A stretch of 64,000 nucleotides of DNA, from IMG/VR virus record IMGVR_UViG_3300028833_000002. One strand, 5' to 3'. The stretch is from a virus. Its lineage: Duplodnaviria; Heunggongvirae; Uroviricota; Caudoviricetes. Positions 2,241 to 34,042 of this stretch are shown piece after piece (positions within the stretch are counted from its first letter, which is position 1; each line of letters begins with the position of its first letter). A program made the translations under genes and the position numbers. Under the pieces are notes generated by a model. The model was not told where the DNA came from. It saw nothing but the letters and a program-made list of their open reading frames with translations, and did not search any database.

Positions 2241-4127
2241 ATGGAAATGTTTGAGGAGTTCGGCACAAGAGAAGTCCTATAGGGCTGCTTGTATGCCATT
2301 GAACTTGACAAAGACGATAATGAAATCGACATCCCCGTTCTCTACATGGACACCTTAAAGGTGTCCACTGTAGATGAAAGTATTTCTTCTGCCTATTCTT
2401 CGGGCGGAAGTTGTAATCCTAAGTTAATGGCTTGGGATTTTGGACGAGACATAGTTGTAAACTTAGAAGATGCTCTTTTTACGCCAGCTTCAAATAGTTT
2501 GTTTTGGACGGGTAAATTAGGTGCTGGCTATTTAAAATTATATCTGAGATATTTCTATGATAGAAATGTTGATAATTTCGCGCCAGACCAATGTCTTAGA
2601 ACAGGCACATTAGTTGCAGAGAAATTTTCTGATTTTATGATAATCCCGGATAGGTGGGGAGTAGATGATAAACAATACGTTGGAGAGTCGTCTATATATT
2701 GTTGGATGGTAGACGGTTATGTTGAATCTACTGATGGTAATAATAGAATTGCAATTAATGATTTAATTTTGTTTTACAGAGAACAGACTTAGAAGTGGTA
2801 TTTCTTTAATGGAAAAGGCCCAACAGAAAACGAAGAGTCATGGTATAAAACTTCTTACATTCACGACTAGGAAACTTATAATACCTATGATAATGAATAC
2901 TTTGCTATACATTATCAGTATGGTAGAGAGGTTTTTGAATGGATAAGGGAACATATTACCAATGCTAAAAAAGAATATGAACCAGTGGCCATAGCTACAT
3001 TAAAGGAATGGGGCAAAGATGTAACTGATTCGGACGTTATGTTCTTGACATAGAATTTATATATAGATGGTTATAGGAAAGGTTGCGACCGCAACAAGCT
3101 TTATAGCCAAAGAACTACTGATGAAAATTATGCCATTAACAATGGCGATTACTTACCTTATCGTTATTTTGCTAATGTAAATGTGGTATATAATACCAAC
3201 ATTACTTCGCCGCAAGAAACTATATACAAATTAGAGACGGGATATGACGATGCTTTCTATATAGAAGAATGTGAGGAATATGTGGCTAAACAGGACTTCT
3301 GTATAGATACTGATATAAACATGCTTCATGGTCAATATAGGTATCTTGATAAATATTCCCAGACACCTTTAAAGGTTTATTTGAACCCTAAGACAATGCA
3401 ACCATACATACCAAATGCTTTTGAATTTTATCGCCGCAATGGTCAAAGGGTTACGGGTAACTTGGCTATAATCAAAGGTGGGGAACGTTATTATAAATGG
3501 GAACGTTTTAAAGCGAAGGAACATAAATCATTAGGCAAAAGACTTATTATAGATTCTAAACATTATCCCGGCTATTTCAAGTTTGTTGGCCAGACTTTTA
3601 TGCGCGATAGACTTGGAGAAGACATTAAATATCAGATAGAGATTCCATTATGTAAGCTGTCTGTAACTAATAAATTAAACTTAAATGCCAGTGGTGACCC
3701 GACAGTATTCTCAATGAAGCTAAATGCTTTAAGACCAAAGAATGGTCGAATGATTATATTAACTGCTTATGATGTAGTCAATAATACTTGTCCTTGCGGC
3801 AAGAATGTTGAGAATATAGCTGAGGAAACTAGCCCACATCCAGTATTACATCCTGAAGAATATACTGGCACTGTTGAACCTGACTTAGAGCTTAATGTTT
3901 ACGCATAGGATAGAGATATTGCTCCTATCTTACTTGGTGAAGAACAGGGCGAAGTTAAGACGACAGAAGATTATGATGTCGCGCCAGAGAATGTAAATGC
4001 TGTTATAGAAGGCACTTTAAACATATATTCTATCGACGAAACAAAATTACCATCTTAGACTTTAGAGCCGCGTATTTTAACACCAGAAGAATACTCAGCT
4101 ACTATCAAAGGAAGTGAGAGCGAATGA
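2241..4127 (+). CDS. Tail-tube-like protein, paralog 2 (628 aa with TAG=Gln; 6 in-frame TAG)
   Basis: ATG 2241 after AGGAGGG RBS. Track ORFs 2289-2792 and 3183-3908 are in the same frame, joined over TAG at 2280, 2790, 2868, 3051, 3906 and 4056. Ends at TGA 4125-4127, overlapping the next ATG (ATGA). Carries PVLYMDTLKVST, WDFGRDIVVNLEDAL and GDPTVFSM motifs. Confidence 0.8.
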
Positions 4128-6241
4128 ACATTTTTGCTGAAAAAGGAATAAGGGACGTAGCTGATGTTACTTTATATTCAATAAACAGGATTGGGACTGA
4201 GGAGTTTTATCTCCCGGTCCTATATCTTGATTCTTTAAAGTTAACTAATTTCTCAAAGAGCGTTGCCACAAATGAGAGTTTTGGTGGTATAGGTAATAGA
4301 AAAACGGTTTCATGGTCTTATACAAAAGATATTAAGTTAAAAGCAGAAGATGCTTTATTTACACAGGCTTCTTTGAGTATGCTTGCAGCGGGGCGTTTAG
4401 CTTAGAAAATGTCACCTTGGACTTCTGCAATTGCTAAGTTAATGGTTGCCAATAAGTATGGATGCAATTCATATTCTACAAAAGCTTACCCATCGCCAGA
4501 ATTAACTGATGAAGAATGGGAGATAGTTTTTAGGTGTGCACAAAAGGCTGGTTTTAATCCAAGAATTGGAGATATAATACTGGAAAAAAACTATAGTGGT
4601 GGCGGTGAGGTCGTAAGAAGTGCCGCACCTGATAAATCTTATGACTACACTGTTAAATATTTATATGACCAAGATGACCAAGATAACGCTTTTGTGGCTG
4701 AAAATAGATGGTTATTAAAACAAGGTTATTTACATCGTAATCAAAAGACTTCATTTTCTTAGAATTTAGCGCCTTATGTGGATATAAGTAAAGATGTTCA
4801 GGGCGTGACTATTCTTCTATAGAATAGCTAGCCTTATGGAGTAATGAATTTTATTTAGGGGTCAAATTTGAACGATACTCTGGAATATTACTGTAATTGC
4901 AAAGTGCAATACTATTCAGAAGAAGACAAGAAAAATAAAGAATTGAATTGTAATTTTGGTGCCAAACTTATTCATGGTTGCAAAGGTATTGTTGCTGAAG
5001 TGGCTGGAATTTCGATACGTGGCGGTTCTGAACCAGAACCTCGTCCAAGGTCAACTAGAGCAGTAACTCCATCTAATAATACTGATGCCAGAATATTCTA
5101 TCAGATATTCCCCGGTAGTTTTATGAGTGCTCGTTTTACTAGCCTGGCAATAGGCAATAAAGAATTTTTAGATAATATTCTATGGTTCTTACTTCCTAAA
5201 AATATGTTAGATGCACAATTTTTCGCGACCCAATTACACGGACGAGATTATTCTAATCCATATTGTTGGTTCTAGACTTAGGAAAGGCAATGCCTAGCAA
5301 TGCCACAGCAAATTATAGACCTTATCTCCGATGAAATCAATGAAATAAAAGATTACGGTTATCAACAAAACTCCCTAAAGGAAGCTAAACAAATTGACCG
5401 TTATACAAAATGTATAGTTACTGACCCTTGTGGTCTTAAGATAGATTTGGTAGAGCAATTCGCAAATATAAAGAAAATGTATAAAGATGAAAAAGATAAT
5501 TACATAGTTTATTATGATGCTAAAACTATGATGCCTTTTGCACAGTCCACTTTCTTAACAGAAGATATAGCTGAATAGAAGGGTGTATCTTTTGAGGGTA
5601 GATACCAAAGCGAACAAGAATATCTTGCCGCGAAAAAGAACAAGTTCTTAAGTGAAATTTAGGACTATTTATTGCGCCTTTATGGACAAGAAGCTTCAGA
5701 ATGGGTTCTATCATTGACTCCAAATGATATTATAATCACGAATATAGATGAAGATAATTTTATTGTTTTATTCCTCGTTACTAAGCGTGATTATATTACT
5801 CTTAAATATGGCACTTTTTATTACAAAAAAGAAAGAGTGATAGATACTGATGATAATGACATCTCATTTTTAGGCATCGACATTCCAATTAACTACGATA
5901 CCTTTAAGGGTGAATATCTTATTGTCGGCGATACAATGGTTAAAGACCAAGCAACTGGTAAAGACCAGCCTTGTCAAATTGTAATAAACAGAGCAACAAT
6001 TTCTTCATCAACTACGTTAAATCTAAGTGGAAAAGGTGAATCGGCAACATTCTCGTTTGATGTTGGTATTCTTGACCCGATAGATGAAAATAAAGACGCT
6101 GTTGAATTAATATTCTATAATACAGAAAAAGATGAAAGAAATGGCGGCGAAAGAATTATTCCACAAAGCAAACGATATGCTCGGACGCCAATTCTTAAAA
6201 CCAAAGAAGAAGTAGTTGCCGCAAACGAAGAAATGTATTAA
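4124..6241 (+). CDS. Tail-tube-like protein, paralog 3 (705 aa with TAG=Gln; 9 in-frame TAG)
   Basis: Track ORFs 4124, 4409, 4868, 5300 and 5672 are all in one frame and separated only by TAGs. N-terminus GIRDVADV...PVLYLDSLK...GGIGNRK..W...EDALFT; C-terminus KGEYLIVGDTMVKDQATGKD. TAA at 6239-6241 is followed by a terminator. Confidence 0.8.
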
Positions 6242-6245
6242 TAAC

Positions 6246-6277
6246 GAAGTGGGCCTAGTCGCCCACTTCTTTTTTTA
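6246..6277 (+). terminator. Rho-independent terminator
   Basis: 9-bp stem GAAGTGGGC/GCCCACTTC, 6-nt loop, followed by a T7 tract. Confidence 0.9.
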
Positions 6278-6321
6278 TTTACAAACGGTTTTAACTACAT
6301 TATTAAAAAGGAGGTGATATT

Positions 6322-7221
6322 ATGGAAGACAATCTTGTTGGAGTAAAAGAATTGTTTGATGTAAGCATTAGACTTAATGAAGCTGTTGATATTGGTAATC
6401 AGCATTATGATATTAACGAATCTATACTCAATTTTGAAAGAGCTGACATAGCACAATTCTATGAACAGCAATCTATCAAAGAAGCTCGTGGTGGCTATCA
6501 TAATAATTTATTGATAGATTGGGTAACTGACACACAAGCAAACTTCGCAATATCAAACGGGGTGCTTTCACCAACTACATGGAGTATTTTAAGTAATTCA
6601 AAGGTTGGTAGGCCAAAAACAAAAAGTATAAGTTATAAAGAGTAGGTTCCTGTCATTGAGGATGGAGATCGATATTTTTGTGTTTTGAAATTTATTCCTA
6701 ATGCAGTTCCGGAACAGTTAGGTTTACAGGGAAATCCCGAAGGAGAACAGATGCCAATGGGTAGAAAGCCTTGGCTACCGCTTAAACCACTTCCGCCGCA
6801 ATCTGACAAATACATCTTTTGCTACGATAAAGACACTGGTAAAAAGATACTTAACTTCAAAGTATGCGGCAATCAGATAATTTTCATGGCAGAACATAAG
6901 GAAGTTGTTGTGGATTATACCTTTAACTATGAGGATAAGATAGTTGAATTGGAAGTTGGTAATCGCTTATTTAAAGACTTCTTACGATTAACTGGAAAAA
7001 TGACCGTAAAGGATTATTTTACCGGGGAACCAAAAACTGCTATTCTTGAAATTCCTAAAATTAAAATTCGTTCAAGTCTGGCAATGAAATTGGGCACTTC
7101 TTATAACACCTCTGTTGTAAGTGATTTTAGTTTTATTGGCTATCCGCCTGAAGATAGATTGGATGAAAGAATATGTAATATTACTTTTTTAGAAACCGAA
7201 TTAACAGGTGATTACTTATGA
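6322..7221 (+). CDS. Tail-tube-like protein, paralog 4 (299 aa; 1 in-frame TAG at 6643)
   Basis: AGGAGGTG RBS. Track ORFs 6322-6645 and 6685-7221 are in frame. GVKELFDV...EARGGYHNNLLIDW and LRLTGKMTVKDYFTGEPKTAILEIPKIKI echo the paralog motifs. TGA overlaps the next ATG. Confidence 0.7.
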
Positions 7222-9230
7222 TAAAGATGCAAGAGTCAGACATTATATATAATGTTATGAGAAAAGCTGAAAAATCTTTTATTAGAGAGATGTAGTTTTT
7301 AAAGGCTATAAATATGGAAGGAGATGGATAGTTTACGCTTCCAACATCGTTAAAGGACCTTTGGGATACCTTTCAAAATAAAGGCAAAATAGACAAATTT
7401 CAAGCAAGAATGAGAGCTTGTGTTTTCGACCAAAAAGGCGACGGCACCGGCAATTACGAATGGCTCCTTTACTTGTCTAATAAAGGGTTCGTTGATAAAA
7501 TTATTAAAACAGGCGACCTAAAAATGCAAGAATATGTCAGATTGTCTGGCAGAAAAGCTGAATATTTACAGCAAAGTGAAATTACTAGTAGGAAGCCTGG
7601 CGGGGATGAATATGTTTTAAATCCTGTTTTTCTTAGAACTCGTTTGCTCGAAATGAGTAAGGATATGGGTAAGGAACTTATAGAATCCTTTAAAAAAGAT
7701 GTTAAAAAGAATGGTATGAGACAAAATGACGTATTCTTTAAATAGTTTAGTTAGGACCTTTTAGCCAACTTAGATATTGCCTTTCTTACACATCAATATA
7801 CGGTCAGAAGTAGACGTAAAAATATGTCTACCGGAAAGATGGAAAATGTAAAAGAAACATCTTAGCAACTTTTTATGATTTCGGCCAATCAAGACCCAAA
7901 GAAAGGAAAGCTTGAAGTCTTCTGTACTACAGATGCTAACGGTGTATCATTCTTAGAAGATATGAACTTCTTTTCTTTTACACGACAAGACAGTTATAAA
8001 ATAATTCAAGATGCTTTTGATAAAACAATTTGTTAGAAAATAAAGGATGAATATGGGAATGATACTTCCCGATATAAATATAAAGACCTTAAAAGAATTT
8101 TGTCATTTACGGTTGATAAATCTGAATTTATAAGACAAGCAGAGGGACAAGGGGTAAAACTTTCAAATCTTAGTTTCGCCAATTTGGAAAAGATGGCTTC
8201 AATATTCTTGGGGGTTGTAAGACAATCCTTAGAAAAATTTCGACAAAGAAAAGGTGATGTTATTGCCGAAAGCTATTAGGAAATTGATAACCTCAAAACA
8301 CCTATGGCAAGAATTTTACAAGCTCAACCTCATCTTATTGATAAAATTTTTAAAGACACTACTAACTATAAAGCGACATCTGGTACAATAGGAGAAGTCA
8401 TGTTCGGTGTCATGATATAGGCTATTATAAACGATGGTGCGGGAGAACAGGTAAGAATCGTAGGCCAAAACAAAAGTAATTCAGGAAAGGACGCGGCCGT
8501 TGACGTTGTTCTCAGCAAATTGGTAGATGGAGAATTAAGGCTTTTTGGTTTCCAAATTAAGAACTATACCAATATTGGTACTTTTACCTTCAATGATTCT
8601 CATGGTAAATTTTATAATGAAGAATACATGGGAAGATATTTGAATGACGCTAAAAGAGCAGTCTTATATGAACTAGCAAATAGATTATGGTTATACAGAA
8701 AACAGCCACAATGGTGGGTTAATGAAACTGTGCTCGAAAAAGACTACATTTATGGCGGTGACAGAATAGCAAAGTATATGTTAGAATTACTTTATTCCAA
8801 CATAAATAGTTTTCTTAGGTATGACCAATGTGATATGGATGAATACATAGGAGTTAATGATTTCTATGTTGTTGGTTTCAATTTTATTCCAGCTTCCGTT
8901 ATTTTCTATGCCTTTGCGCAAGCCTTACAAAAGACTGATTAGATTTTACAATTAAAGGATTTCTATTTCTCATATGGAAATATGGAGAAAAACCCTAACC
9001 TGCCTTTACTAAAAACATGGGATAATTCATGGAGAAGAATGGCAGAAACCTTTGCAAGTTTGGGACACGCTTCACCGCAAGATGTGCAAAACTTCTTAAC
9101 TCCATATACGGGACAAGATGGTGACCCACCTCCAAACAAATGGAAGGAAAATCTGATGCTTAATTATTCTAGTGTACAGTTTAACTTTAAAGAAAAACTG
9201 GAAGTATTATTAAAACATATGCAAAAATAA
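7218..9230 (+). CDS. Hypothetical protein (670 aa with TAG=Gln) with a candidate PD-(D/E)xK nuclease-like motif
   Basis: ATG 7218 overlaps the upstream TGA. Track ORFs 7410, 8520 and 8982 are in frame, with ~9 TAGs and no TAA/TGA until 9228-9230. Segment GTIGEV...AVDVVL...GFQIKNY. Confidence 0.7.
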
Positions 9231-9244
9231 GGAGCGTGATGTGA

Positions 9245-12200
9245 ATGGCAGCAAATAAAACGGTTTATACCTTAGACCTTGATAGCACTGGTTTGGTCCA
9301 AGGCTATAAGCGTGCGCTTAAAGAAATGGAAAACGCCGGCTATTCCGTTCAAGTAACTGGTAATATTAGTAAAGAGCTTGATAAGCTGATTAAGGACTAT
9401 GATATTCTTAAAAAGTAGGCTTAGAATGGTTTTACTAACCCAAAGGAAATCGCGGCGTTTAATGATAGCATGAATAAACTTATCGGTAAATTCGGTAAGA
9501 TAGATACATTAATTGGCGCGGCTGGAACTGACTTAAAATAGATGGTTGATAGAATTAAGCTATCAGTTAGTGGTCTATCAGACATTTTTACTAAAGCTGG
9601 CTTTCAAAATGCCAAAAAATTAACCGATGATATTGTTGCAGCAACCAATAAAAATGAAGTTGCTGAAAAAGCCTTGAATGAAGAATTAAAGACAAGAGTC
9701 GAAAGATTAAAAGCCATTCAAGCAGAACAGCAAAAACTTAAAGGTCAACAAAGTGCCGCAATCGCTAATGCTCTTACTGGTGTTGGCACAAACAAGGCTG
9801 GAAAATCCATGCAACTGTTTGCCACAAACCAGGGAATATCTGATGCACAAAAAGCAGAAGATAGAGCAAAGATACTTGCTAAAGCACAGCAATTGGCGGC
9901 AACATCAAAAAGTATACAATAGATTTGGCAGCAATTAAATACTTATATTGTTGAAAATGGTCTTGGTCCGGAACTTAGTTCATAGGGTGAAAAAGCAAAG
10001 CAATTAAAGGAACAATTACAACAGGCCAAAGATGCTGCGGCACAGTATGCTGAGCAAATATCAGAAGCTAGAAAGAACACCAAGGCTGGAAAAGAATCAG
10101 TTGAAGCGATTGGAAGTATTGACAAGGAAAGCGGGGAATATAAAGTAAAAACGTCTGTTTTAACGGATACTCGTAGAGCTATCAAGGAAGTTGAAAAAGA
10201 CTATTCTGACCTTGGTAGAGTAATGCAGAATCCTCGCGCTTCAGCAGATGAACTTAACAAAGCTATGGAAACATCCAACAGAGTTATGACAGAAACTGCC
10301 GAAAACTCTCGTAGGGCACATAATAGCTTTGATGAAATGATAAATCCAATTGCCAGGGCTGCTACATAGGCCTCAAACATGGCAACGTCTATAGAAAATC
10401 TGCGCTAGAGAATCCTTTTCCTTTTCTCGGCAACATCAATTTTCTATAAGATAAGAGCAGAATTAAATAAAACTTTTGAATCAGTAAAGCAACTTGATAA
10501 ATCATTCGCATCTATCGCCATGGTTACTGATAAAACATTGTCAGACATGTGGGCGCAATATGATAAATATGCTGACATGGCTACTAAACTTGGTCAAAGT
10601 ACGAATGATATGATTTAGGCATCAGCTTTGTTCTATCAGCAAGGTCTTGACACAAACGAAGCCTTACAGTTAACAACTGATACCATGAAACTTGCTACAT
10701 TAGCGGGTTCAGACTTTAGCACGGCCACTAAGGAAATGACATCTACAATCCACGGCTTTAACATGGCGATGAACGAAGGTTCCCATATTACCGATGTTTA
10801 CTCAGAACTTGCCGCTCACGCAGCTGCATCTGTTGATGAAATCGCAAAAGCTATGGAAAGAACTGCATCAATCGCTAACTCTGCTGGTATGAGTTTCGAG
10901 AATACATCTGTATTCCTTACTCATATGCTCGAAACCACCCAGGAAGGTGCAGAGAACATCGGTACATCTTTAAAGACCATTATCGCTCGATTTGGTGAAT
11001 TAAAGAATAATGTATCGGCGGCTGAATCAGAATTTGACGATTTAGACCTTAACAAAGTAGATAAAGCATTAAAGAGTGTAGGCGTTCAATTAAAGGACGA
11101 AAACTTACAGTTTAGAGACCTCGACCAAGTATTACTTGAATTGTCTGGTAAATGGTCATCATTAGACCGTAATACTCAGCGTTATATCGCTACTATCGCG
11201 GCTGGTTCTCGTCAGCAGTCTCGTTTCCTTGCTCTTATGGATGGATATGATAGAACCGTAGAACTTATGGAAACTGCGGCAGAAGCCGAAGGTAAGGCTG
11301 ACCAGCAGTTCGCAAAATATGCTGACACTGTAGAATACAGATTAAAGCAGTTACAGACAAAGTGGGAAGAATTTAAGGTTTCTATTACAAACAGTGATTT
11401 ATGGAAGGGCATGTTAACAACAGCTTCCAACCTCTTAGACCGATTAAATAATGTTGATACAAAAAGACTTGTTGTTGGCGGCGTAATGGGTATTATTATT
11501 GGTAAATAGCTTATTAGTGCCTTAACTACACAAATTGCTTCATCAGCACAAACTGTATCAAATGCTTTTAATAACGTTACTAAGAAAATTATAAATGATT
11601 TTAATAACAAAACAGGTTCTCTCGGTGAGAAGGCAATAGCAAAACAGATTAACAATCTGAAGGCAAAAATAAATAGTTTAACAGCAGATTTTGGAGCAAA
11701 TTTTGGAAATAATCTCAATCCTGCACTTTTTACTAGCACTAGCGAAGCCATTAAAATGCTATCTACTGACATAGCGGGACTCACAAATCCAGTTGTAATT
11801 TTAAATACACTTTTAGGTGAAGAATACTATTCTATGGGACAGGAGAAGGAGGCTCTAGAGGCTTTACATGTAATGTTCCCTAACCTAAGTAAAGATACTT
11901 CAGAATTTACAACATAGTTAGGACATATGAGCGAAGCGGCTTAGAATACAACCAATAAGATTAATTCAGCGGCCCAAGGAATTAAGACTCTTTCTAATAC
12001 CGAAGAAATAGCTAAACAGCAGTCTGCCGCTTTAGGTTCGGCTTTAGGGGCAGCTTTTGGTTCTATATCTATAGCTTTAACAGGCATAATTAGTGGCACA
12101 ACTTCTACCGAAGAAGCCTTTAGAGCAATGACAATGACATCTGTCATGATGCTTACTACTAATTTAATTCCAGCAATTTCGGCTGTGACCACTGCAATTA

Positions 12201-15200: not shown

Positions 15201-16408
15201 ATGAATCACAAGAAGAACTTCGCAACGAAGAGATGGAACTCAAAGAAGCTATCATTGATAATACTGCATATTGGAACGCAAAAGCAGAGTCTATGATACA
15301 GAGTTTTGATAACGCAGAAGAATATGCTCAGTATATCAGTTCTATTTCTAAAGAATATGCTGATATGACATTAGCTATGCAATAGGAAAAATTAGCAGAA
15401 TATGCTAACACCTATGAAGAAGCTACTGAGTATATGGCATTATAGGCAATGGATGCAGTTACCGAAACCGGGGATTATATTGTTGAAATGACAACAGTAA
15501 CCGGACAGGAAGTTACAAATATTGTTAATTAGACTGGAGAAGCTTTCACCCAAGAAGTTATTAGACAGTTTAATGAAACAACAGAAGCCTTTACCAATGA
15601 TATGAAAAAAGCTGCTGAAGCTATTGATGCCGCAAACAAGGCATTACAAGATGCCTATGAAAAATTAGCTGAGTGCGCTAAAGAAGCTGATAGCCTCGCA
15701 AGTAAACTTGGCGGCGAAGGCGGAGGTTCTAGCAATCCTCCGCCTGAAACTCCGGGCTTTGGTGGAGATTTAACGGCAGATGGCGTATATGAAAAAAATG
15801 CTGACCTTGGAAATCTTGTGAATACATTAATTGGCGCATCTGGCCACAGCAGCCAAGAAAATGTAGATAATTTAATTCGGGACATTTTCGCGGCAACGGG
15901 CGACCCTTCTAGCAAAATGTTTACCACTGATATGATGAAAAAGATATATGAAACAGCATCTCAGGAATATTGGCGATTTACTAAATATATAGGGTTGGAT
16001 AGTAAGGACGCGCACAATTTCGGACTTGCCGCTGTTAAGGCATCTTCAAGATTTAATTTGCTTTTCGAACGTAAAACCAATAAATTCGCAGAAGGCGGCC
16101 TTGTAAACTACACAGGCCCAGCTTGGGTAGACGGTTCTTACTCAAAACCAGAAGCTTTCCTTTCAGCAGAAGACACAGCAAGAATCGGTGAAGCCGCAAA
16201 AATCCTTGCTGACCTTCCTTGGCTTGGTAGCAATCCTACACAAACTATCACTAACAATCGCGGCGGAGACGTAGCGGTAGAGATTAACCTTAACATTGAC
16301 AAATTATCCTCAGATGTTGATGTTGATAACATGATAGAACGGGTTAAAAAAGAAATTGTAGATGTATCTAGACCAATTGGTTCACCTACTATTTTACAAT
16401 AGAATTAA
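9245..16408 (+). CDS. Tail tape measure protein (2387 aa with TAG=Gln; roughly 30 in-frame TAG)
   Basis: ATG 9245 after AAGGAG. Track ORFs 9542, 10628, 12128, 13295, 14492 and 15602 all share this frame. TP901-type core (ITDVYSELAAHAAASVDEIAKAMERTASIANSAGMSFENTS), Ala/Gln-rich coiled coils, hydrophobic segments near 11470 and 12260, and C-terminal FAEGGLVNYTGPAWVDG. TAA at 16406-16408 is followed by a terminator. Confidence 0.92.
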
Positions 16409-16414
16409 TTTTAT

Positions 16415-16450
16415 AGAGTCTGACCCCTATGGTCAGGCTCTTTTCTTTTA
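16415..16450 (+). terminator. Rho-independent terminator after the tape measure gene
   Basis: 11-bp stem AGAGTCTGACC/GGTCAGGCTCT (one G-U), 5-nt loop, followed by TTTCTTTT. Confidence 0.85.
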
Positions 16451-16521
16451 TTGGATAAAAACACAGTAATGACTACATAATATTAGACAGGAATCAAAAT
16501 CCTTTAAGTGAGGTGAAATAC

Positions 16522-19500
16522 ATGAAAACAAAGGACTTTCGCGGTTTTCGTTTTGGTAATATCCACACTTCTGATTTAAACTTAGAAGTGGTAAGTTCTT
16601 CAGGTAAATACGAAAATAGAACACTCCCATCCACGAACGATTCTGTAGTAGACGTTCCGGGCGGCGACGGACAATACTATTTTGGTTCAGTTTATAAGAA
16701 TAGAGAATTTACTTGTAATGTGGCTTTTGATAGCGTTTCTGAGAAAATTTACAGAAAGATACGTTAGATTTTTTCTACCGATAAACTCCAAGACTTAGTA
16801 TTTGATGAAGAACCTTATAAGACGTGGAAGGCAAAACTAAAGGGGAAGCCGGAATTTAAATCAATATGTTTTATAAATCATGATACTGGAGAAAGAGTTT
16901 ACAAAGGTGATGGTAAACTTACCTTTATTTGTTATTTTCCTTATGCGTTGGGAAAAGATAAATACATAGTAAGGGCTGCTGACTATTACATTACACATAC
17001 TCCTGAATGTATAATTAATTAGAGTTTAAAGGACGATACTTTCGTTAAAAATGATACCTTTAACTATTCGCCTATTGATACTGAGAAAAAAGAATATCAA
17101 AAATATCATTACAACGTTGCTCCAAGCACTTTAGAGGGTGGAGAACCAAATTACGAAAACCCTAATTATCGTGATATATTACATTGTAATGACATTCATA
17201 AGAATGGCGACCCTATTGATTACAATCCAAATGATAGAACTCCATGGAAAACTGGTTTCCCTACGATTGAACAGGTTCAGTTTGGTGAGTTATTCTTTGA
17301 TACTCCACAAGGCGAAAAGACCATAGTAGACGTGCGTAATTATTGGAATAATGTTCCATAGTGGCAAAGCGCCGCAAAATTATTAACAACTCCTACTCTT
17401 GATTTTGATTAGGAACTTATGTATATGCCGCAATACTCTAAAACAGATTATATCAATATGGAACTTGGTTTTGTAAATAATAGACCAATGATTGGTTCAC
17501 GTATTCTTGTATATAATCCGGGCGATTTGCCTGTAGATTGGGAACTTCGTTTTGATGAAAATAAGCGGAGTTTTTGGTCATGTCGTGGCGGCACAAAATT
17601 TAGAATAAGACGTTTTAATGTTGAACGTTTATCTATTGGTAATGCGGTTGATTGGTGTGGTTTAACTACATACAAAGAAGAAGATAATGAACCTTATAAA
17701 TATGGTAATCGTTATTTCAAACGTAGACATTTACCTAAATCTGGAATTAGTAGCCGAATTTATGACGCTGATTCTTCGACTATAAAGGATAAAATTTATT
17801 GTTCTATAGAGGACGGTGGGAAATCTAATTATTATGATAAATATGACATTAGTAAATTAATTGAAAAAGGTATTATCCCTGCTGATAAATGTTTTGATGT
17901 TAACAAATATGACTATTCATCAGAACACATCCATTCAGACAGTGATTATCCATCATCAGCAGAAGAAAGCTCGGAAATGGCTTTTAATCTCCATCTTGAA
18001 GATTTTTGGGATGATTATATAGGTATAGACACCCTTAATGATTTAGGTGATTTCCATCCTAGCCATTGTTATTATGTTGAACCTATTCCGCGCGAAAAAC
18101 TAGGACATTTTATTAAACTCTTCTATTGGCAAACAATCCAGTGGAGAGGAGATAAGCTTCCTAATGGTGAATGGGTTGGCACAATGCGTTGGCTTGACAT
18201 GATGCCAGAGGGTATGTTTACCTTAGGCGAACCAAACAATGAAGGTAAATATGATAAGATAATCGTTAATGAAATTAATAATCCATTACTTAATTTCTTA
18301 ACTATGTTCTTAGACTTCAGCTTCAATAAAGACACAAATACATTAACAATTACAGCCGATAAAACAAGATACAGAGAAACATATGCTGCACTTGACTTTG
18401 AAGAAGGTATAGCTTTCGCGGCGAGATATGATGAACTCTATGAAGCTTGTATAGATGAAGAAGAGCAGTATGAATTATACTGGGACACATTAAAACAACT
18501 TCTCGGAAAATTCAAGCCTATCTTTACTGAAATGGACCAAGAAGAAATGGTTGGCCAGTTTATTGACTCATATATCAATCATCCTTCAGAGTTTGTCGGC
18601 ACAGATTTCCGCGACTATAATTATGAAGATGAAATTCTCAATGGTTATCGTATGCCGGGCTGGATAGCAAGTGATTATCTTGAAATTGACCAATCTCAAC
18701 TTTCGGGTGTTGCTTTAATTAAAGAATATCTTAATGCTATTGGTGAAGACGCTGATAATGTATTCGTTGGTAAAAAAGTCCAATACACTAAAGAAAACAG
18801 AGATAAACTTCTAAAGAATGGCCTATCAAATCTTGTTAATAAACTTGATTCAACAATAGGTATTAATGGTTATTTAAACGACCTATTAGATGATTATTAC
18901 TACGTAAATTCCAATGAACATATGCTTTACACGACAGCTAACCCATATGGTATGGAATTTGTTTACAAACCAAATAAAGTAATCATGAATGAAGCCATTA
19001 CAAAAGGCAAGTGGTTCAAACTTCCACCGGGTTGGTCATTAATCAGTGTTGAGCCAGTAGTTGATGAATCTTTATGGGGCGGCAAACGTTGGGAAGATGC
19101 AAGACCATTTGACTGGGGTTATGGCGGAGATAAAAATGGCAATAAGAGAGAAGTTCAGCAGTTATTTGACTATATCTATGAAAAGGCTAAAATTGAGTTC
19201 TTTAAAGTTATACCAGAACAGTATATTTTAGATAGTGGCATTGTTCCATCTGACCGTATTGTTGATGACTGTCCAGATGAACTATTCAAATTCAACACGT
19301 GGTATGCTGACGAATTTGCCTATTTTGAGGAAGAAGATAATTTCTTTGCTTTATCATTCTATCACAAGCTTAGAAATGATGCGGAATATGAATTCTTAAA
19401 AATCCTTAATGGTTTATGGAATTCTTATGCGCCATTCTTTAGTTGGACTTCATAGAAAGGTATCTGGTTTGACCCTGATACCCATGAACCACCATCACTT

Positions 19501-19668
19501 GATGACTATGATGCAACGGGACTTCCCCTTAGATGCATTAATGGAGATATTAGCGACTGGTGGTGGTACGCTTGCAACTATTTGTGGGCAAACTTCCCTC
19601 CGCCTTATTGGGCTATGGCAGATATGTTAAATAAAATACAGATTAAATACACACCTTTATTCTACTAA
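16522..19668 (+). CDS. Distal tail protein (Dit), enlarged by insertions (1048 aa with TAG=Gln)
   Basis: ATG 16522 after GAGGTG. Dit-like N-terminus (FRGFRFGNIHTSDLNL...VDVPGGDGQYYFGS...VAFD...LVFDEEPYK). In frame with track ORF 17419-19455 across TAGs. Ends IQIKYTPLFY* at TAA 19666-19668. Directly follows the tape measure gene. Confidence 0.85.
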
Positions 19669-19682
19669 TGTGAGGTGATTAA

Positions 19683-22600
19683 ATGGCAATTTAGAAAAGA
19701 CCATATGAACTTTCCGTATGGGTTGAAAAGTTAAATGGTAGTGGTTCTAAAGCCGAAGAGAAAGGAATAATCATTGGTGCACATGACATGGACTATCCGG
19801 GCAAAGCAACCGGTATAGCAATCACAAGAGAGCTGAAGGGAAGCAAATCCCTCAGCTTTCAAATGGTTGATAAATATTTCGACCCTTTTGTGGGAGATTA
19901 CGTACACAATGACTTTATAGATATGCTTTCTTCAGAGGTTAAAGTAAAACTTAATTATAAAGGTAAATGGCATGAATTTACTATTAAAGGTGTAGATGAA
20001 AAGAAGGTATTACATGGTGTTATCAAGACCTTTACTTGTCAAGACGCTTGTATAGATGAACTTGCAAGAAACGGTTATGGCATTACTTATGACACCGAAC
20101 TATATAATAACGTTGAAGAAATTGGTGATTTTTCGCGCGGAACTTTAAAGGATAGTATTTGGAGATATGCGCCAGAAAATAACTGGGGCGACTTTACGGA
20201 ATTTAAGGAAGAACGTTTGTTCAAAATTCCAATAAGCTGTTTTGGCGGCGCAATCAACGCACACAGACTATCATTCAGATTAGAGGAAGAACAAATTAAA
20301 CGTATTCGCGCCGAAAAAGGTACAGATAAAATTACCAACGCCTATACAGATGAAACAAGAGTAGTAGAACTTAGCGATGACCTCGCAAACACCACATTCT
20401 GGGACGAATACACAGATGACGGTGTAATCAATCTCCTTAGCAAAGAATATGTCTCAAACATAGCTAATGACGGATATTTATATGTGCCTTACAGTTGCTT
20501 AAGCTTCTGTTATGGCCAAGATTCAGAACCAAATTTTTCCGACACCGTTAAATATGATAGGGCGGCAACGGAAACTGCAATTGAATATAATGGAAAGCTT
20601 TTACTTGCTCCTTCAAGCGTAGACCCGCGCACAATCATCCAATTCTATGCTATTCCATCAGATGCTATACTCGAACTTGACGAAGACGGGGTAATCCTCA
20701 ATAAAGAATATACCTACTACATGACCCTTGCTGAATGGAACAGGGCAATTACATGGAGCAAATTATGGTACATCTTTGAAGATACTCATTTAGTTCGCGG
20801 CGAAGTATTAGGTTCAGCAGACATTGATAGCCCATATATTAGCCATACATTCAAGTATCTTAAAAATGATACAGCAGACAAAATCCTTGACTCAGACTTT
20901 GAATCAAGAGGTAATAGATGCGTTTGGTATGAAGGCTATCTTAGTGATGTTAATGACCATACTTATGTAAAGGGTAAGAAGTTCTCTATCACAAACAGAA
21001 CAGCCGCAAATATCTCAGAAGAAATTGACTAGTATGCAACGGTTTATAACTGTAGAGCAGATGAATTCACAAATGAATACAATAGTGAAGAATGGGATTT
21101 CGCGGCAGAACCAAAGACATCAGACGATAAATTCTACCGTGTATGCTCTAAAATAGCAACAAGACAAATCGTTCCATAGCTCGCAAGAAACCTTGTATAG
21201 AATGGCACAGATATGGACTCGATAGATGGTTGGTCTGCAATGTCTTACTTACAGGAAGACCCAATGTTCATCACACCTGCAATAACTCATAAGGGTTTAA
21301 AGTATAGCGAAGATAGTGAAAACATTGATAGTTCTGTTCTTGTTTATAATCCAGCACAAGCCCAGATTGGTTATAAATGGACAGTTAATTATACTGGTAG
21401 TTTTGACCCGAATGTTCATAATTCAGATGAAGAGCTTAATATTATTACTTTTTTATATGAGGGTAATAAATATACATGGGGCGGTCCTAATGCTATTGGA
21501 TGGTGCGACCTCAAAAGACGTATTCATGATGATTTGATTGGTTTTATTTAGACTGAACAAAAACAACATGGAAAAGGTTTAGATGTTTATGCAATTGGTA
21601 TGAGTATTTATTATAAGGGCTATCCGGAAAAAATCGTCAATGGCGACTTAGCGCCAGATACTTCTCAGCCGCAAATCTATAAGTATTTGTGCGATAAGAA
21701 CGACTTTATCTATAATGCTCTTAAAAAATCTGGTCTATTCGTATTTACCGAAAGAACAGACGTTATTGCGTATGCTGAAATGGTTGACGGTAAAATTCAG
21801 TATGATACGGAAACAACCTATTATCAAAAGAATCCAACGCAGAACCAATTCAACCTTAAAAGAAATGATGCCGGCAACGGTATAACAATAGTGCATAAAG
21901 AGGGCACTATCTCTGAAGCTGACGGCCAGGAAGTTGTAAACTTCGGTATTGTTGGTCAGGAAAAGAAAATCGAAAAGGATAAGATTTATTGCTTAGGTGT
22001 TCAGGCGTGGGCAACAAAAGAATTCCAAATTAAGATTGGTAAGGGTAGTTTAATTTCAGAAGGTAAGTATAGCTTAGTTGATTCAACAATACTTACATTT
22101 GACCTCGGCCCAACAAAGCCTTTTGAGTATCCAATTCAAGAAGCTGCGCCGCAAGAATCAGATGATAGTGTGATTATTGGTAAGGAAAACTTACCACCTT
22201 TAAGATTTATTTTATTTAAGGTTGATAAGGATATTGAGAATCCATATTTTGTAATTGATTCTCCAAAGACAATTACACTTATGAAGCTTTATTTATTTGA
22301 AGCCTATACAAAAGGTATTGATTGTTTCCCTTCAAATGAAGCAACATATAGATATAGTGGTAGAGATTTATTCTGGCCGCCAAAGGGTAAGGTAGACTTA
22401 ACATCAGAAGATGGTCGCTACCATTACACGGAGTTCTTTACAGAAGAAGACATGAAGAAATTAATAATCTTTGAAGACCAGATTATGCTTGGTTCAACTT
22501 ATGAATATCAGCAATATTTCATTCAGAGATTAAAGGTATTCGACGAAGATAAATAGGCTTATATAATGTGCGACACGATGGGCGCAGAAAAGTTCCTTTC

Positions 22601-25600
22601 TTCTGATACTGATGAAATAAAGGAAAACGCATTACCTCTTGATGCCGCGAAATATACAGACGAAGATTATGTAATTGAAACAAATTACATTGACCTTAAT
22701 AAATGTCCTTACTACATTAAAGACGCTGAAATTGACCAGTGCGATTGCGGCAAGGGAACAACTTGTTTCTATCAGAAATTTGGTTATTGTCCTCATAGAT
22801 TTAAAACTGAAAAACACGATAGACGTGTAAGAACATTAAGTGTTGAAAAGTCAAATCGCTTTAACATCATTCAGGAAATCAGTAAGGTCTTTAAGGTTTA
22901 CCCACAATTCTATGCTGAACATAATCCAAATGGTTCACTTAAGAAAGATGCTAATGGCAACTATATCAAAAAGGTATTTTACATCACTGAAAAAGGCAAT
23001 GTAAATCAGATTGGTTTCCGCTATGGCAAAAACCTTAAAGAAATTACAAGAAATATCGCTAGTGACCAAATTGTTTCAAAGTTATATGTAATGGACGTAG
23101 ATAGTGAAATCTCAAAAACTGGTTTATGTTCTATTAAAACAGCAGAAGATAATCCATCAAGAGACAGTTTCATTATTGACCTTTCATACTACATCCAAAA
23201 GGGTATGCTTGATAAGTATGAGGTTGAACAAGACCTTTACGGTATTAAGCCATCTGATGATGAAATCCCGGCTGGATATTTATATCAGCTTGGTTATTAC
23301 AATAAACAGTATGATGATTTATCTAATAAAATCATTAATCTTCAGGACGCTTCATATACAGAGCTTGAAGCTAATTTAACCGTAAACTATCAAGCTATTA
23401 TCACATCACAAGAACAAATCCTTAAGATTAAAAAACAGCTTGACAGATATAGAACACAATACGGCGCAAGTGGTATTAACTATGAAGAACAGCAAGCATA
23501 TAAGTCATACCTTACAAGATTGGCAGAACAGTAGAGTATCTTAGCTAAGTTAATATACTCAACATTCTATACAGATGGTAAGTGTGACACAAATCCAAAT
23601 ATATGGTCAGAAGATTGTTTCGATGGTGTACCTGCGGCGGAAGACAGCGCAATTGATTTCTTTAGTCATATCACAGATTTTGATGGAAGCAAAGATTATT
23701 GGGTTGACAAACACTCATATACTTGTGGTATTCTTGGTCAATACAATTAGGAATATCTCCAAATCCAACAATGGAAAAGAGAGAGGGCAAGTTATCTTAA
23801 ACTTATCAACCAAATCTCGGCGGCCTTCTATAAGAAATATGAACCGTATCTCAAAGAGGGCACATGGTCAGATGACAACTACTTAACTGACAATGCATAT
23901 TACTTCGGTGCACTTGATGTTGCAGCAGAAGGTGCAATACCAAAGGTACAGTATGGTATCAGTGTTATCGACCTTGCTCCATTAGGCGAAGAATATGATA
24001 TGTATAATTTTGAAGTTGCGGATATTACCTATGTGGAAGATGAAGAAATTTTAGGCACTAATAAGCATACAGGTTTACCAAATAGATTAAAGGTTCTTAT
24101 TTCATCAACAACTGAGAATATAGATGACCCGGCAAAGAATACAATTACAGTTCAGAACTACACAACATCTTTCCAAGATTTATTCCAGCAAATTTCAGCA
24201 ACAGTTCAGAACTTAACATATAACGAAAATATTTACAAGCGTTCATCAAACTTTACGTCATTACAGAATATCAAGAATGATAGTTTACAAGGCGCACTTG
24301 ATACAAATGAGTTAATGCTTATTAATACTGATGAAGATAACATTCAGGTAGATAGCACGGGTACTCATGGTAGCGACATAAACAACCACGCTAATAAATA
24401 TAAGTTAAATGGTCAAGGCTTATTCTTCTCAAATGACGGTGGTCAACACTGGAGCGTCGGTGTAGGCCCAAGTGGTATTAATGCAGACTACATTAGAGTT
24501 GGTACGTTAGATGCCGGCAAGATAAGAATAGCTGATAGTTCATATGTTTATTTCTCATGGGATAAAAATGGTATTTCGGCTTATCGTGACCCGGCTTCAA
24601 TCAACACGGACTCACGTAATGCTAACGATGCCGCGATATTTAATAAGTTTGGTTTAAGCATTGTTAACAATGGTCATATCAAACTTAGAGCAGGTTATAA
24701 CTATACTGGTTAGATTGGTTCTGATAAGACAATAGCTACAGAAACTCAAATAGGTGATGAAGTAGGCTTCTACTTATACAATAGCGCCGGACAGGTAATC
24801 TTCAGAACAGCCACATCAACGAAGACTGGTGCTGAGGCTTCTCGTGAAACTGCGGCGATTAATCTTGTTGGTGAAATGTTTATTACTAATGACAGTAGTA
24901 TAAATGTTATTACTGGTTACAAATACAGCAATGAAGTTACCTTTAGTAATCAGCAGTATTTCGGTTATGATAGCACAAAACTTGTTACTGGTTTAATTGA
25001 AAGTGATATAACTGCAAGCGGTAATACCTACACAGTAATTAGAAGCGGTTTGTATAGTGATAATGATTACTTAGCTTATATTTTAAATAATAGCAATCAG
25101 TTAGTGAGTGTTACTATTAAGAACTCAGATGATAGTGGTTTAATCGTTTATACATATGCTTCAAAAACAAGTGATGGGGAAGCTTATGTTAAAACCCAGA
25201 CGAATGGTTATTCTAAGGTTACTAAACAAATTGCAACATTCAACTATGAAGAGGGCGGCAGCTCACTTCTTAAGACTATAAGATATTACTCGTTCGAATA
25301 TTAGCAAGGCTTAATATCAAAACCAATTTACAAGGAAGATAATCTTGGCGTTGCACAAGGTACTTTCGTAGTGGCAACAACAGTATCCACAGAACCTAAA
25401 ACCTACAACTCCGAAGCAACATAGACGACAAGGGAACCGGTTGTAGCTGATGTAAACTCTAAGGCAGACAACAATGGTATCATGTATGGAGAAGGTACAA
25501 ATTTAACCGTTTATAACCAGAGTGGCACTTACTTTAAAACTTATTTAGGTAATGATGAAGCTCCATCAAGTGATGGCTCAGTAGGTTTATACTTAAATAA

Positions 25601-26186
25601 TAAGATAGACCTTAGCGGTAATTCACAAGATGAAGGTACTAAATCAAGTAGATTATTTACTTGCTGTTCAAGCAATGGCGGCGGACAACTTAACAATATC
25701 TTGTCTATTCTTAAAAATGGTTCACTTTATATTGGTGGCACAATAAAAGATTAGTATGATACATCAGGATTAGCTGATAAAATTGAAATTGAAAAAGCCG
25801 GTATTTATATAGATAACACTGGAAACCTTGTTATGAACTTTTCAAGTATAAAAGGACCAAAAGAAAATGGCGAAGGTTTAATAGACCTTCCGGAATATAT
25901 AGCACAATAGATTTCTAAATCAAATAGTGCTCTTACTACTGTTATGAAAGGTATCGCAGACAATGCTACATCTGGATTAGCTAATGCAGACCACGGACAC
26001 AACTTACAAAATAATATGCTAAGACTTGACAATATGATGTGGATAGGCGGAGGTTCAAAAACAGGTAATAATCAATTTATCAATATAGAAGGTTCAGGCG
26101 CTGTTAATGGCGGATATATAAGTGTAGAAGGTTTTGTAAGGTGGTTAATAGGTAGAATAAGAGTTGCAGACACATATGTGCGCTAA
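19683..26186 (+). CDS. Tal / tail spike-baseplate hub protein (2167 aa with TAG=Gln)
   Basis: ATG 19683 after GAGGTG; begins MAI(TAG)KRPYELSVW. Track ORFs 19788, 21213, 21600, 22566, 24000, 24876, 25482 and 25944 are all in this frame. Tal-like segments SKSLSFQM, FRYGKNLKEITRNIASDQIVSKLYV and GINADYIRVGTLDAG. Follows Dit. Confidence 0.85.
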
Positions 26187-26200
26187 GGAGGCAAAGGATT

Positions 26201-26578
26201 ATGACATACTCAGCAGGAGATTTAAAAGGATTAATTAATCTTATTGACAAAATAAAAACAAAAACTTTTGATATAAACACTCAATACAAGTTTCTTAAAA
26301 TATCAAAAGTAGCAAAAGAAGAATTCGAGCTTTTAGGGGAGTAGCAAAGTCTACTCCTCTAGGAGTATGGAGAAAAGGATGCTGATGGTAAATACGTCAT
26401 TAACGAAGATGGCGGCTTTAAAATCAGAACAGAATTGATTTAGGAATGTGCGGCGAAAGTAAATGAACTTAACACTCATCCTGTTCAATTTCCAGACATC
26501 TATTTTAGTTTAGATGAATTCGATAATCTTGGCTTCACTCTTGAAGACCTTGAATTACTCGACCCGTTTATAAAATAA
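26201..26578 (+). CDS. Small conserved tail-region protein, DUF1617-like (125 aa with TAG=Gln; 3 TAG)
   Basis: Missing from the ORF track because of the TAGs. AAGGAGG RBS; MTYSAGDLKGLINLIDKIK...EYGEKDADGK...EDLELLDPFIK*. Position and length match the small protein that typically follows siphoviral Tal. Confidence 0.7.
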
Positions 26579-26620
26579 AATAACCCCGTTCTCAATTAAG
26601 AGAACGGGGCTTTCTTTTTA
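26575..26620. terminator. Bidirectional Rho-independent terminator between convergent modules
   Basis: 10-bp stem CCCCGTTCTC/GAGAACGGGG with an A-tract on the left and a T-tract on the right. Confidence 0.9.
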
Positions 26621-29079: not shown

Positions 29080-29102
29080 TTTCTTCACCACCTTATGTAT
29101 AT

Positions 29103-29131
29103 ATTATACCATAATTTTACTTAAAAGTAAA
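29103..29131 (-). promoter_or_regulatory. sigma-A promoter
   Basis: TTTACT-N17-TATAAT with TATG upstream of -10. Confidence 0.75.
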
Positions 29132-30022: not shown

Positions 30023-30037
30023 TAATTATCCCTCCTA

Positions 30038-33958: not shown

Positions 33959-33987
33959 TCAATTTCCTCCCTTCTTATTATAATATA

Positions 33988-34016: not shown

Positions 34017-34042
34017 GACATTTAATCCTGACCTTAATCTGC

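What the first reader, a model, noticed from the sequence alone, without database searches (positions are those of the whole stretch)
2241..26578. TAG is a sense codon (most likely Gln): the phage uses genetic code 15
Seen: dozens of in-frame TAGs interrupt otherwise single reading frames that begin at a good RBS and end at TAA/TGA. Several of these stops abut or overlap the next start exactly (ATGA at 4124-4127, 7218-7221 and 55248-55251; TAATG at 55641-55645). None of the ~45 genes ends in TAG. Gln is suggested by RuvC FEDI*F* (EDIQxQ in related resolvases), AAA_24 MV*DV and Tal MAI*KRPYE. Established: TAG-to-Gln recoding is known in Lak megaphages and some crAss-like and other gut phages. 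No suppressor tRNA, release factor or synthetase gene lies in this window, so the machinery must be elsewhere in the genome or not yet recognised.
Basis: partly seen in the sequence, partly recalled or inferred. Interest (0 to 1): 0.8.

Follow-up and report, generated by a model that had tools for sequence, protein, structure and literature searches.

The report
Rumen phage reads TAG as glutamine
This 180-kb phage from sheep gut writes about a fifth of the glutamines in its tail and virion genes as the stop codon TAG and carries its own TAG-reading tRNA; that is a real but already described trick of gut phages, so this is a new example, not a new phenomenon.

Summary
In window 2241-26578 eight + strand frames (145 to 2387 codons) hold 77 in-frame TAG and no internal TAA or TGA. 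Cover by ORFs rises from 68% (code 11) to 99.4% when TAG is sense; the TGA-sense and TAA-sense controls give 69% and 78%. TAG means Gln on three lines of evidence. In a 90%-identical relative, 15 of 18 TAG differences are CAG or CAA. In standard-code homologues the TAG columns are conserved Gln (AAA_24: 102 of 120; RuvC EDIQxQ motif: 53 and 46 of 70). Across seven relatives, Gln is by far the best-fitting residue. The missing machinery is a tRNA(CUA) at genome 120615-120689, 24.7 kb beyond the window's end. It shares U1-A72 and A73 only with the phage's two tRNA-Gln. No release factor or GlnRS/GluRS gene was found. TAG is 8 times denser in structural genes than in replication genes, the pattern published for code-15 gut phages (Borges et al.; phAss-1). 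An independent sheep-gut sample keeps the TAGs. This scan had already noted the suppressor tRNA from a neighbouring window of this genome. Verdict: correct, a new member of a known kind, modest interest. There is no protein-level proof.

The parts
2241..4127 (+). Virion structural protein (phrog_2729 paralogue), 628 aa, 6 in-frame TAG; its stop overlaps the next start (ATGA)
4124..6241 (+). Virion structural protein (phrog_2729 paralogue), 705 aa, 9 in-frame TAG
6322..7221 (+). phrog_2729 paralogue, 299 aa, 1 in-frame TAG
7218..9230 (+). Unassigned structural-block protein, 670 aa, 9 in-frame TAG
9245..16408 (+). Tape measure protein, 2387 aa, 30 in-frame TAG. One PHROG match runs over residues 299-1796; PhageMin_Tail domain at 444-649. 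The penultimate codon is a TAG that aligns with Gln in 4 of 6 relatives
16513..19668 (+). Distal tail protein (Dit-like N-terminus), 1051 aa, 5 in-frame TAG. Codon 85 (16765-16767) reads CAA in variant-strain contigs of two public runs
19683..26186 (+). Tal-like large tail protein, 2167 aa, 13 in-frame TAG. No family match; the Tal name rests on its position after Dit. The TAG at codon 4 is kept in 6 of 8 genomes. Against the 90.5%-identical relative L007, 15 of 18 TAG differences are CAG or CAA
26141..26578 (+). Small protein (phrog_1401; weak DUF1617 match), 145 aa, 4 in-frame TAG. The true start may lie downstream of the GTG
26618..27361 (-). RuvC-like Holliday junction resolvase with an N-terminal Zn-finger-like module, 247 aa, 5 in-frame TAG. 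TAG codons 141, 143 and 209 fall in conserved Gln columns
27367..59137 (-). Replication and nucleotide-metabolism block: dUTPase, ClpP, DnaE-type Pol III alpha, RecJ, primase, DnaB, PhoH, AAA_24, gyrase A and B, Dam, ThyX, NrdG, NrdD, ligase. Nearly TAG-free: with the RuvC gene counted in, the block has 1.1 TAG per 1000 codons, against 8.4 in the structural block
42690..43643 (-). AAA_24 ATPase, 317 aa. Its single TAG at codon 60 (43464-43466) lies inside the Pfam domain; 102 of 120 homologues have Gln there
54754..56479 (-). Three small genes (165, 131 and 278 aa) with 2, 1 and 1 TAG. Homology with relatives runs through each TAG, which faces Gln or TAG in relatives at three of the four positions (at codon 159 of the 165-aa gene: TAG or Met)
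35952..37778 (-). RecJ-like exonuclease. Its one TAG, at codon 29, lies upstream of the DHH domain. Whether it is inside the real gene was not tested (an alternative TTG start lies at 37640)

Best explanation
The window belongs to a complete 180,579-bp phage genome from sheep gut, of the siphovirus type (tape measure, Dit, Tal). In this phage UAG is decoded as glutamine.

The decoder is a phage-encoded tRNA with anticodon CUA at genome 120615-120689, 24.7 kb beyond the window's end. It looks like a tRNA-Gln whose anticodon changed from CUG to CUA. It is presumably charged by the host's Gln route (GlnRS, or non-discriminating GluRS plus GatCAB) and competes with host release factor 1 at UAG.

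Replication and nucleotide-metabolism genes almost avoid TAG, so they can be translated by the unmodified host. Tail and virion genes carry about 20% of their Gln codons as TAG, so full-length products can only appear once the suppressor tRNA has accumulated.

Shown here: the frames, the Gln meaning by homology, the tRNA gene, and the gene-class bias. Inferred: who charges the tRNA, competition with RF1, and the timing or lock function, which is the published hypothesis.
For: Frames. There are 77 in-frame TAG and no internal TAA or TGA in eight frames. ORF cover is 68% under code 11 and 99.4% with TAG as sense, against 68.9% and 78.2% for the TGA-sense and TAA-sense controls. A single PHROG tape-measure match spans residues 299-1796 across many TAGs, and the portal match spans 46-505 across 3 TAGs.

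Gln meaning:
- AAA_24 TAG column: Gln in 102 of 120 full-length homologues, including one 98% identical.
- RuvC TAG columns: Gln in 53, 46 and 44 of 70 homologues.
- Tal against the 90.5%-identical relative L007: of 21 columns with a TAG, 3 are TAG/TAG and 15 are TAG against CAG or CAA.
- All-against-all over three proteins in 7 to 8 genomes: Gln faces TAG in 721 of 2868 cells. The log-likelihood per site is -2.55 for Gln and -3.01 for the runner-up Glu.
- Whole genome against the complete relative G004: Gln 74 and TAG 31 lead the residues opposite its TAGs.
- Variant-strain contigs in public runs read CAA at Dit codon 85 and CAG at Tal codon 450.

Machinery. The tRNA(CUA) was found by ARAGORN. 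Relatives G003 and G004 carry 1 and 2 such genes. Its closest tRNA is a relative's tRNA-Gln(CUG), at 79% identity. Among the 26 tRNAs of the genome, only the suppressor and the two tRNA-Gln combine U1-A72 with discriminator A73.

Bias. The structural block has 8.4 TAG per 1000 codons (20% of Gln codons); the replication block has 1.1 (4%).

The DNA is real. An independent sheep-gut DNA run keeps the TAGs, and contigs from RNA libraries also keep TAG at 19453, 21177, 21198 and 21549.
Against: There is no protein-level evidence, and the charging of the tRNA is not shown.

At about 57% identity, only 19 to 25% of residues facing a TAG are Gln, because many TAGs sit at variable positions. Two RuvC TAG columns and Tal codon 4 are not Gln columns in the relatives that lack the TAG.

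TAG is somewhat enriched in the last 3 to 10 codons of genes. In GH113, outside the window, the orthologue ends at the TAG position. A terminator role in a few genes therefore remains possible.

The timing model is untested. TAG is spread evenly along genes (KS p = 0.5). Some genes of the replication block do carry sense TAGs (AAA_24, three small genes, RuvC).
Confidence: 0.93

Rival explanations
1. TAG has two meanings within this genome or infection cycle. It is a Gln codon in structural and late genes. It remains a working terminator, through host RF1, in some early or small genes that have a back-up TAA or TGA a few codons downstream.
For: TAG is enriched relative to CAA and CAG in the last 3, 5 and 10 codons (6, 8 and 13 cases; Fisher p = 0.008, 0.005 and 0.001). 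Several small genes outside the window have a TAG 1 to 3 codons before TAA or TGA. The GH113 orthologue in G004 ends where the window phage has TAG plus 3 codons.
Against: In all three window genes with a late TAG, homology continues beyond it. Several of the outside cases are doubtful ORFs with no orthologue, some of them overlapping tRNA genes. The gene set came from a crude ORF caller.
Confidence: 0.3
2. TAG is a sense codon but stands for another amino acid: pyrrolysine (ARAGORN's label for a CUA anticodon), Glu, Lys, Tyr, Leu or Trp.
For: ARAGORN prints 'tRNA-Pyl' for the CUA anticodon. Glu and Lys are the second and third most common residues facing TAG.
Against: Gln fits far better than any other residue. 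Conserved Gln columns face TAG in RuvC and AAA_24. In the close relative, 15 of 18 TAG differences are CAG or CAA. The tRNA has an ordinary cloverleaf with a TTCGAAT T-loop and matches tRNA-Gln best. From general knowledge, Glu and Lys are the usual substitution partners of Gln.
Confidence: 0.03
3. The TAGs are true stops: the genes are decayed or fragmented, or the TAGs are sequencing or assembly errors or are edited away in the RNA.
For: None beyond the code-11 reading itself.
Against: Internal TAA and TGA number 0, against 77 TAG, in frames up to 2387 codons long. All seven related loci show the same thing, with TAGs at partly different sites. An independent DNA sample keeps the TAGs, and RNA-library contigs also carry them unchanged. 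Single family matches run across the TAGs.
Confidence: 0.01

Closest known systems
TAG-to-Gln (code 15) recoded gut phages of Borges et al. (bioRxiv 10.1101/2021.08.26.457843): Lak, crAss-like and the Jade, Sapphire, Agate, Garnet and Amethyst clades
   Same: In-frame TAG aligning with Gln; a phage suppressor tRNA(CUA); recoding concentrated in structural modules spread over a large genome, with replication genes mostly in the standard code; an animal-gut source; a host probably using the standard code; release factor and synthetase genes often absent.
   Different: Membership of any named clade was not tested, because their terminase sequences are not on hand. No 'code change module' (tRNA + synthetase + release factor) is present; this genome has only one tRNA(CUA). 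The lysis genes were not identified, so the published lysis-gene bias could not be checked.
Phage phAss-1 (OQ749652) and the proposed Phassvirus group (PMC10607447)
   Same: It is the best deposited match to the portal (28% identity, E 1e-36) and also a hit to RuvC. It is a large Caudoviricetes genome with TAG in 41 ORFs including the tape measure and portal, has tRNA-SUP-CTA genes and no dedicated synthetase, and its predicted hosts are Clostridia.
   Different: The relationship is only distant, with no nucleotide match. phAss-1 is from human gut, is 136 kb and has three suppressor genes; this phage is from sheep gut, is 181 kb and has one.
crAss-like phages with proteomic proof of code 15 (Peters et al., PMC9523058)
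   Same: The same reassignment (TAG to Gln) in phages of the gut microbiome (abstract).
   Different: Those are podovirus-like Crassvirales of Bacteroidota with mass-spectrometric evidence. Here the virion module is siphovirus-like and no protein data exist.
E. coli supE amber suppressor, a tRNA-Gln with anticodon CUA (from my own knowledge, not tested here)
   Same: A tRNA-Gln whose anticodon changed from CUG to CUA inserts Gln at UAG in competition with RF1.
   Different: supE is a weak chromosomal suppressor in a genome that still uses TAG as a stop. Here a phage builds hundreds of sense TAGs around its own tRNA.

Membership tests
TAG-to-Gln recoded (genetic code 15) phages | Conserved genes are interrupted by in-frame TAG only, and become single frames when TAG is read through | tested here: met
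   77 TAG and 0 TAA or TGA in eight frames; cover rises from 68% to 99.4%; family matches span the TAGs
TAG-to-Gln recoded (genetic code 15) phages | TAG positions align with Gln in homologues | tested here: met
   AAA_24 102 of 120 Gln; RuvC 53, 46 and 44 of 70; 15 of 18 swaps to CAG or CAA in a 90% relative; Gln is the best fit of 20 residues
TAG-to-Gln recoded (genetic code 15) phages | A suppressor tRNA with anticodon CUA is encoded by the phage | tested here: met
   Genome 120615-120689, outside the window. Also present in relatives G003 and G004. Gln-like acceptor end
TAG-to-Gln recoded (genetic code 15) phages | TAG is not used as a terminator | tested here: inconclusive
   Window genes: homology continues past late TAGs. 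Genome-wide there is an excess of TAG just before TAA or TGA, and one orthologue ends at the TAG
TAG-to-Gln recoded (genetic code 15) phages | Recoded codons are concentrated in late or structural genes | tested here: met
   8.4 against 1.1 TAG per 1000 codons; 20% against 4% of Gln codons
TAG-to-Gln recoded (genetic code 15) phages | Gln is incorporated at UAG in the protein | not testable with these tools
   Needs (meta)proteomics; none is on hand
Named clades of Borges et al. (Jade, Sapphire, Agate and others) | Placement within the clade on a large-terminase tree | not tested
Phassvirus-related group (phAss-1) | Monophyly with phAss-1 on signature proteins, and shared synteny | tested here: inconclusive
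   phAss-1 is the best deposited portal hit, but at only 28% identity, and there is no DNA match. No tree was built

The most novel reading that the evidence does not exclude
TAG has a time-dependent double meaning in this phage. Early in infection, host RF1 stops at the TAGs that sit 1 to 10 codons before the TAA or TGA of some genes. Once the phage tRNA(CUA) accumulates, the same codon becomes Gln and unlocks the tail and virion genes. The terminal TAGs with tandem back-up stops would then be either working early terminators or fossils of the reassignment. Relatives with twice the TAG load and two suppressor genes (G004: 451 TAG against 217) would give a graded natural series on which to test the timer hypothesis.
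Probability: 0.25. Interest if true: 0.45.

Novelty: new member of a known kind. Interest (0 to 1): 0.3.

Why it matters
Practically, any annotation of this genome and its ruminant-gut relatives under code 11 shatters the tape measure, Dit, Tal, portal and resolvase genes. They must be called with table 15.

Biologically, it adds a complete, circularly closed 181-kb siphovirus-type genome and at least seven relatives to the catalogue of TAG-to-Gln phages. The contrast between a TAG-poor replication block and a TAG-rich virion block is clean. Some virion genes are TAG-free (the probable capsid gene and two phrog_2729 paralogues). Together these could serve to test whether recoding is a translational timer or mere drift. 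It does not change what is known about the phenomenon.

Tried and rejected
- Megablast of 16513-26578 against deposited phages found no match, so no close named relative exists there.
- Pfam found nothing on ten head-module proteins or on several large block-C proteins. PHROGs named the portal, a weak TerL and the paralogue family.
- Searches of the whole genome for a release-factor domain (PF00472) and a GlnRS/GluRS catalytic domain (PF00749) found none.
- Whole-genome coding density is a poor discriminator. The crude caller gives 74.8% under code 11 and 86.7% with TAG as sense, but 85.6% with TAA as sense. I replaced it by the region-level test and the in-frame against off-frame counts.
- There is no positional bias of TAG along structural genes (KS p = 0.52), and only a marginal excess in the first 30 codons (p = 0.03). 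I make no claim from it.
- U1-A72 alone is not specific to tRNA-Gln in this genome. Only the combination with A73 is.
- RNA-library contigs cover parts of Dit and Tal and keep the TAGs. The tool warns that such libraries can contain DNA, so I do not claim transcription.
- A single X3 contig skips 111 bases at 17277-17389 with only 26 bases on one side. That is too weak to interpret.
- Host identification was not attempted beyond noting that TGA is a frequent stop (44 of 195 frames), so the host is not a TGA-recoded lineage.
Full report
**What the window is.** The window is bases 31902-95901 of a single 180,579-bp IMG/VR virus record. The record has a 128-bp direct terminal repeat and an estimated completeness of 100%. 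The same DNA is held by sheep-gut metagenome runs from at least two samples and studies.

The + strand block up to 26578 is the tail end of a virion module:
- five tandem paralogues of a 'virion structural protein' family, phrog_2729;
- a 2387-aa tape measure protein (PhageMin_Tail);
- a Dit-like protein;
- a 2167-aa Tal-like protein, named from its position after Dit, since it matched no family;
- a small phrog_1401 protein.

The - strand block 26618-59137 is a replication and nucleotide-metabolism module. It encodes RuvC, dUTPase, ClpP, DnaE-type Pol III alpha, RecJ, primase, DnaB, PhoH, AAA_24, gyrase A and B, Dam, ThyX, NrdG, NrdD and ligase. The phage is therefore neither crAss-like nor Lak-like. 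Its portal is most like that of the TAG-recoded human-gut phage phAss-1 (28% identity), followed by the large siphoviruses of Bacillus, Lactococcus and Enterococcus.

**The observation.** Under code 11 the + strand of 2241-26578 gives 35 ORFs of 60 aa or more, covering 68.0% of the region, the longest 678 aa. With TAG read as sense it gives eight abutting frames covering 99.4%, of 628, 705, 299, 670, 2387, 1051, 2167 and 145 aa. The controls do not do this: TGA as sense gives 68.9% and TAA as sense 78.2%.

The eight frames hold 77 in-frame TAG in 8052 codons and no internal TAA or TGA. The two other frames of the same DNA hold 237 and 477 TAA, 79 and 475 TGA, and 182 and 142 TAG. One PHROG tape-measure match runs over residues 299-1796 without a break, and the portal match runs over 46-505 across three TAGs.

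The TAGs are not assembly errors. Contigs of a DNA run from another sample and study cover 16888-19614 and 20152-22000 with 5 and 0 differences, none at a TAG. Contigs from two RNA libraries carry the TAGs at 19453, 21177, 21198 and 21549 unchanged. That argues against editing, but the tool warns that such libraries may contain DNA.

**What TAG stands for.** Four lines agree on Gln.

(a) Homologues called under the standard code.
- The AAA_24 ATPase has one TAG, at codon 60, inside the Pfam domain. Of 120 full-length homologues, 102 have Gln there, including proteins 98% and 86% identical.
- In the RuvC-like resolvase, TAG codons 141, 143 and 209 face Gln in 53, 46 and 44 of 70 homologues. The other two TAGs lie in variable columns.

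(b) Codon swaps in a close relative. Tal of locus L007 is 90.5% identical. Of 21 columns with a TAG in either genome, 3 are TAG/TAG, 15 pair TAG with CAG or CAA, and 3 pair it with other codons. Variant-strain contigs in public runs read CAA at Dit codon 85 and CAG at Tal codon 450.

(c) Residue fit. Seven IMG/VR relatives were found (56-62% identity in Dit for six; L007 matches only the last 69 residues of Dit, at 94%). All have many in-frame TAGs, up to 79 in one tape measure. Over the tape measure, Dit and Tal, Gln faces TAG in 721 of 2868 cells. When the residues facing TAG are scored against the empirical substitution profile of each of the 20 amino acids in the same alignments, Gln is best (-2.55 per site), followed by Glu (-3.01) and Lys (-3.11). 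Conversely, window Gln codons face a relative's TAG as often (8.0%) as window TAGs do (8.1%), and no other residue exceeds 2.2%. Against the complete 186-kb relative G004 (88 orthologue pairs), Gln (74) and TAG (31) lead the residues opposite its TAGs.

(d) The decoder. ARAGORN finds no tRNA in the window but 26 in the genome, one of them with anticodon CUA at 120615-120689. ARAGORN's 'Pyl' label only reflects the anticodon: the gene has an ordinary cloverleaf. Its most similar tRNA is a relative's tRNA-Gln(CUG), at 79% identity. Among the 26, only this tRNA and the two tRNA-Gln combine U1-A72 with discriminator A73. The two relatives whose records are at least 89% complete carry one and two tRNA(CUA) genes. 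No release-factor domain and no GlnRS/GluRS catalytic domain is encoded anywhere in the genome, so charging must rely on host enzymes. That step is an inference.

**Where the TAGs are.**

| Block | TAG per 1000 codons | Share of Gln codons |
|---|---|---|
| Structural, genome 16.6-58.5 kb | 8.4 | 20% |
| Replication, - strand | 1.1 | 4% |
| Second + strand block, 91-119 kb | 4.8 | 17% |
| Remaining genes, mostly small | 2.5 | 10% |

The few TAGs in the replication block are real sense codons as well. This holds for AAA_24, for RuvC (the last gene of that block, with five TAGs) and for the three small genes at 54754-56479. In those three genes homology with three relatives runs straight through each TAG, which faces Gln or TAG at three of the four positions.

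Within the virion module some genes avoid TAG altogether. These are a 246-aa, a 390-aa and a 183-aa protein in the head part (none has a named function; the 390-aa one, phrog_4088, may be the capsid protein) and two large phrog_2729 paralogues with 45 CAA or CAG and no TAG between them. TAG is spread evenly along genes.

This is the pattern published for alternatively coded gut phages: late modules recoded, replication genes variable, and suppressor tRNAs found in only part of the genomes. It is the basis of the hypothesis that recoding gates late-gene translation.

**A caveat on 'no gene ends in TAG'.** Every code-15 frame ends in TAA (151) or TGA (44). In the window, the three genes with a TAG 10 codons or fewer from the end are read through, judging by homology. 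The tape measure's penultimate TAG faces Gln in four of six relatives.

Genome-wide, however, TAG is over-represented relative to CAA and CAG in the last 3, 5 and 10 codons (6, 8 and 13 cases; Fisher p = 0.008, 0.005 and 0.001). The GH113 orthologue in G004 ends where this phage has TAG plus three codons. Several of these cases are small or doubtful ORFs without orthologues. A residual terminator role, or fossil stops with tandem back-ups, is therefore possible for a few genes outside the window but not shown.

**Comparison with what is known, and verdict.** TAG-to-Gln recoding with a phage suppressor tRNA is established for several groups:
- Lak phages, crAss-like phages and several clades of Firmicutes phages from human and animal guts (Borges et al.);
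- crAss-like phages, where it has been validated by proteomics (PMC9523058);
- phAss-1, the nearest deposited relative of this phage (PMC10607447).

I had found the tRNA independently before I read that note.

The finding is a new member of a known kind and of modest interest. The main open points are protein-level proof, who charges the tRNA, and whether the recoding acts as a timer.

Noticed in passing
window 1-7221 (continues upstream to genome 29337): Five tandem paralogues of one 'virion structural protein' family (phrog_2729): 915, 672, 628, 705 and 299 aa. The first two have no TAG among 45 Gln codons; the next three carry 6, 9 and 1 TAG.
   Followed up: partly
L016:1039-1389 (relative G004): The complete 186-kb relative encodes a tmRNA (tag peptide ANDFAFAA) right beside two tRNA(CUA) genes. 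The window's genome has no tmRNA by ARAGORN. A phage tmRNA next to amber suppressors may matter for ribosomes stalled at UAG.
   Followed up: no
L011:8930-9889 (genome 118930-119892): A TAG-free gene for an AAA_33 (polynucleotide-kinase-like) plus HD-domain protein lies about 700 bases upstream of the suppressor tRNA. It is possibly an RNA repair or processing enzyme.
   Followed up: no
window 27170-27361 (-), N-terminal ~65 aa of the RuvC-like protein: The N-terminal Cys/His-rich module of the resolvase recurs as 4 to 9 tandem copies in many unrelated-length proteins of the representative library (hits with 4-9 matched stretches to query 1-66).
   Followed up: no
whole genome, mostly outside the window: There is an excess of TAG within the last 3-10 codons before TAA or TGA (13 against about 5 expected from the TAG share of Gln codons). 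These are candidate fossil or still-working TAG stops.
   Followed up: partly
relative G004 (L025-L034): The relative has 451 in-frame TAG against 217 here, and two suppressor tRNA genes against one. TAG load differs two-fold within the clade.
   Followed up: partly
window 59931-64000 (+), continuing to genome 97333: An 1833-aa protein has a collagen-flanked surface repeat (CFSR, PF19079). It starts a second + strand block with moderate TAG use. A GH113 glycoside hydrolase lies further on (genome 101357-102481).
   Followed up: no
window 19692-19694 and 16765-16767: Some TAGs are kept at the same site across genomes only about 57% identical: Tal codon 4 in 6 of 8 genomes, and Dit codon 85 in 5 of 7. 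The non-TAG relatives have Lys or Ile there, not Gln.
   Followed up: partly
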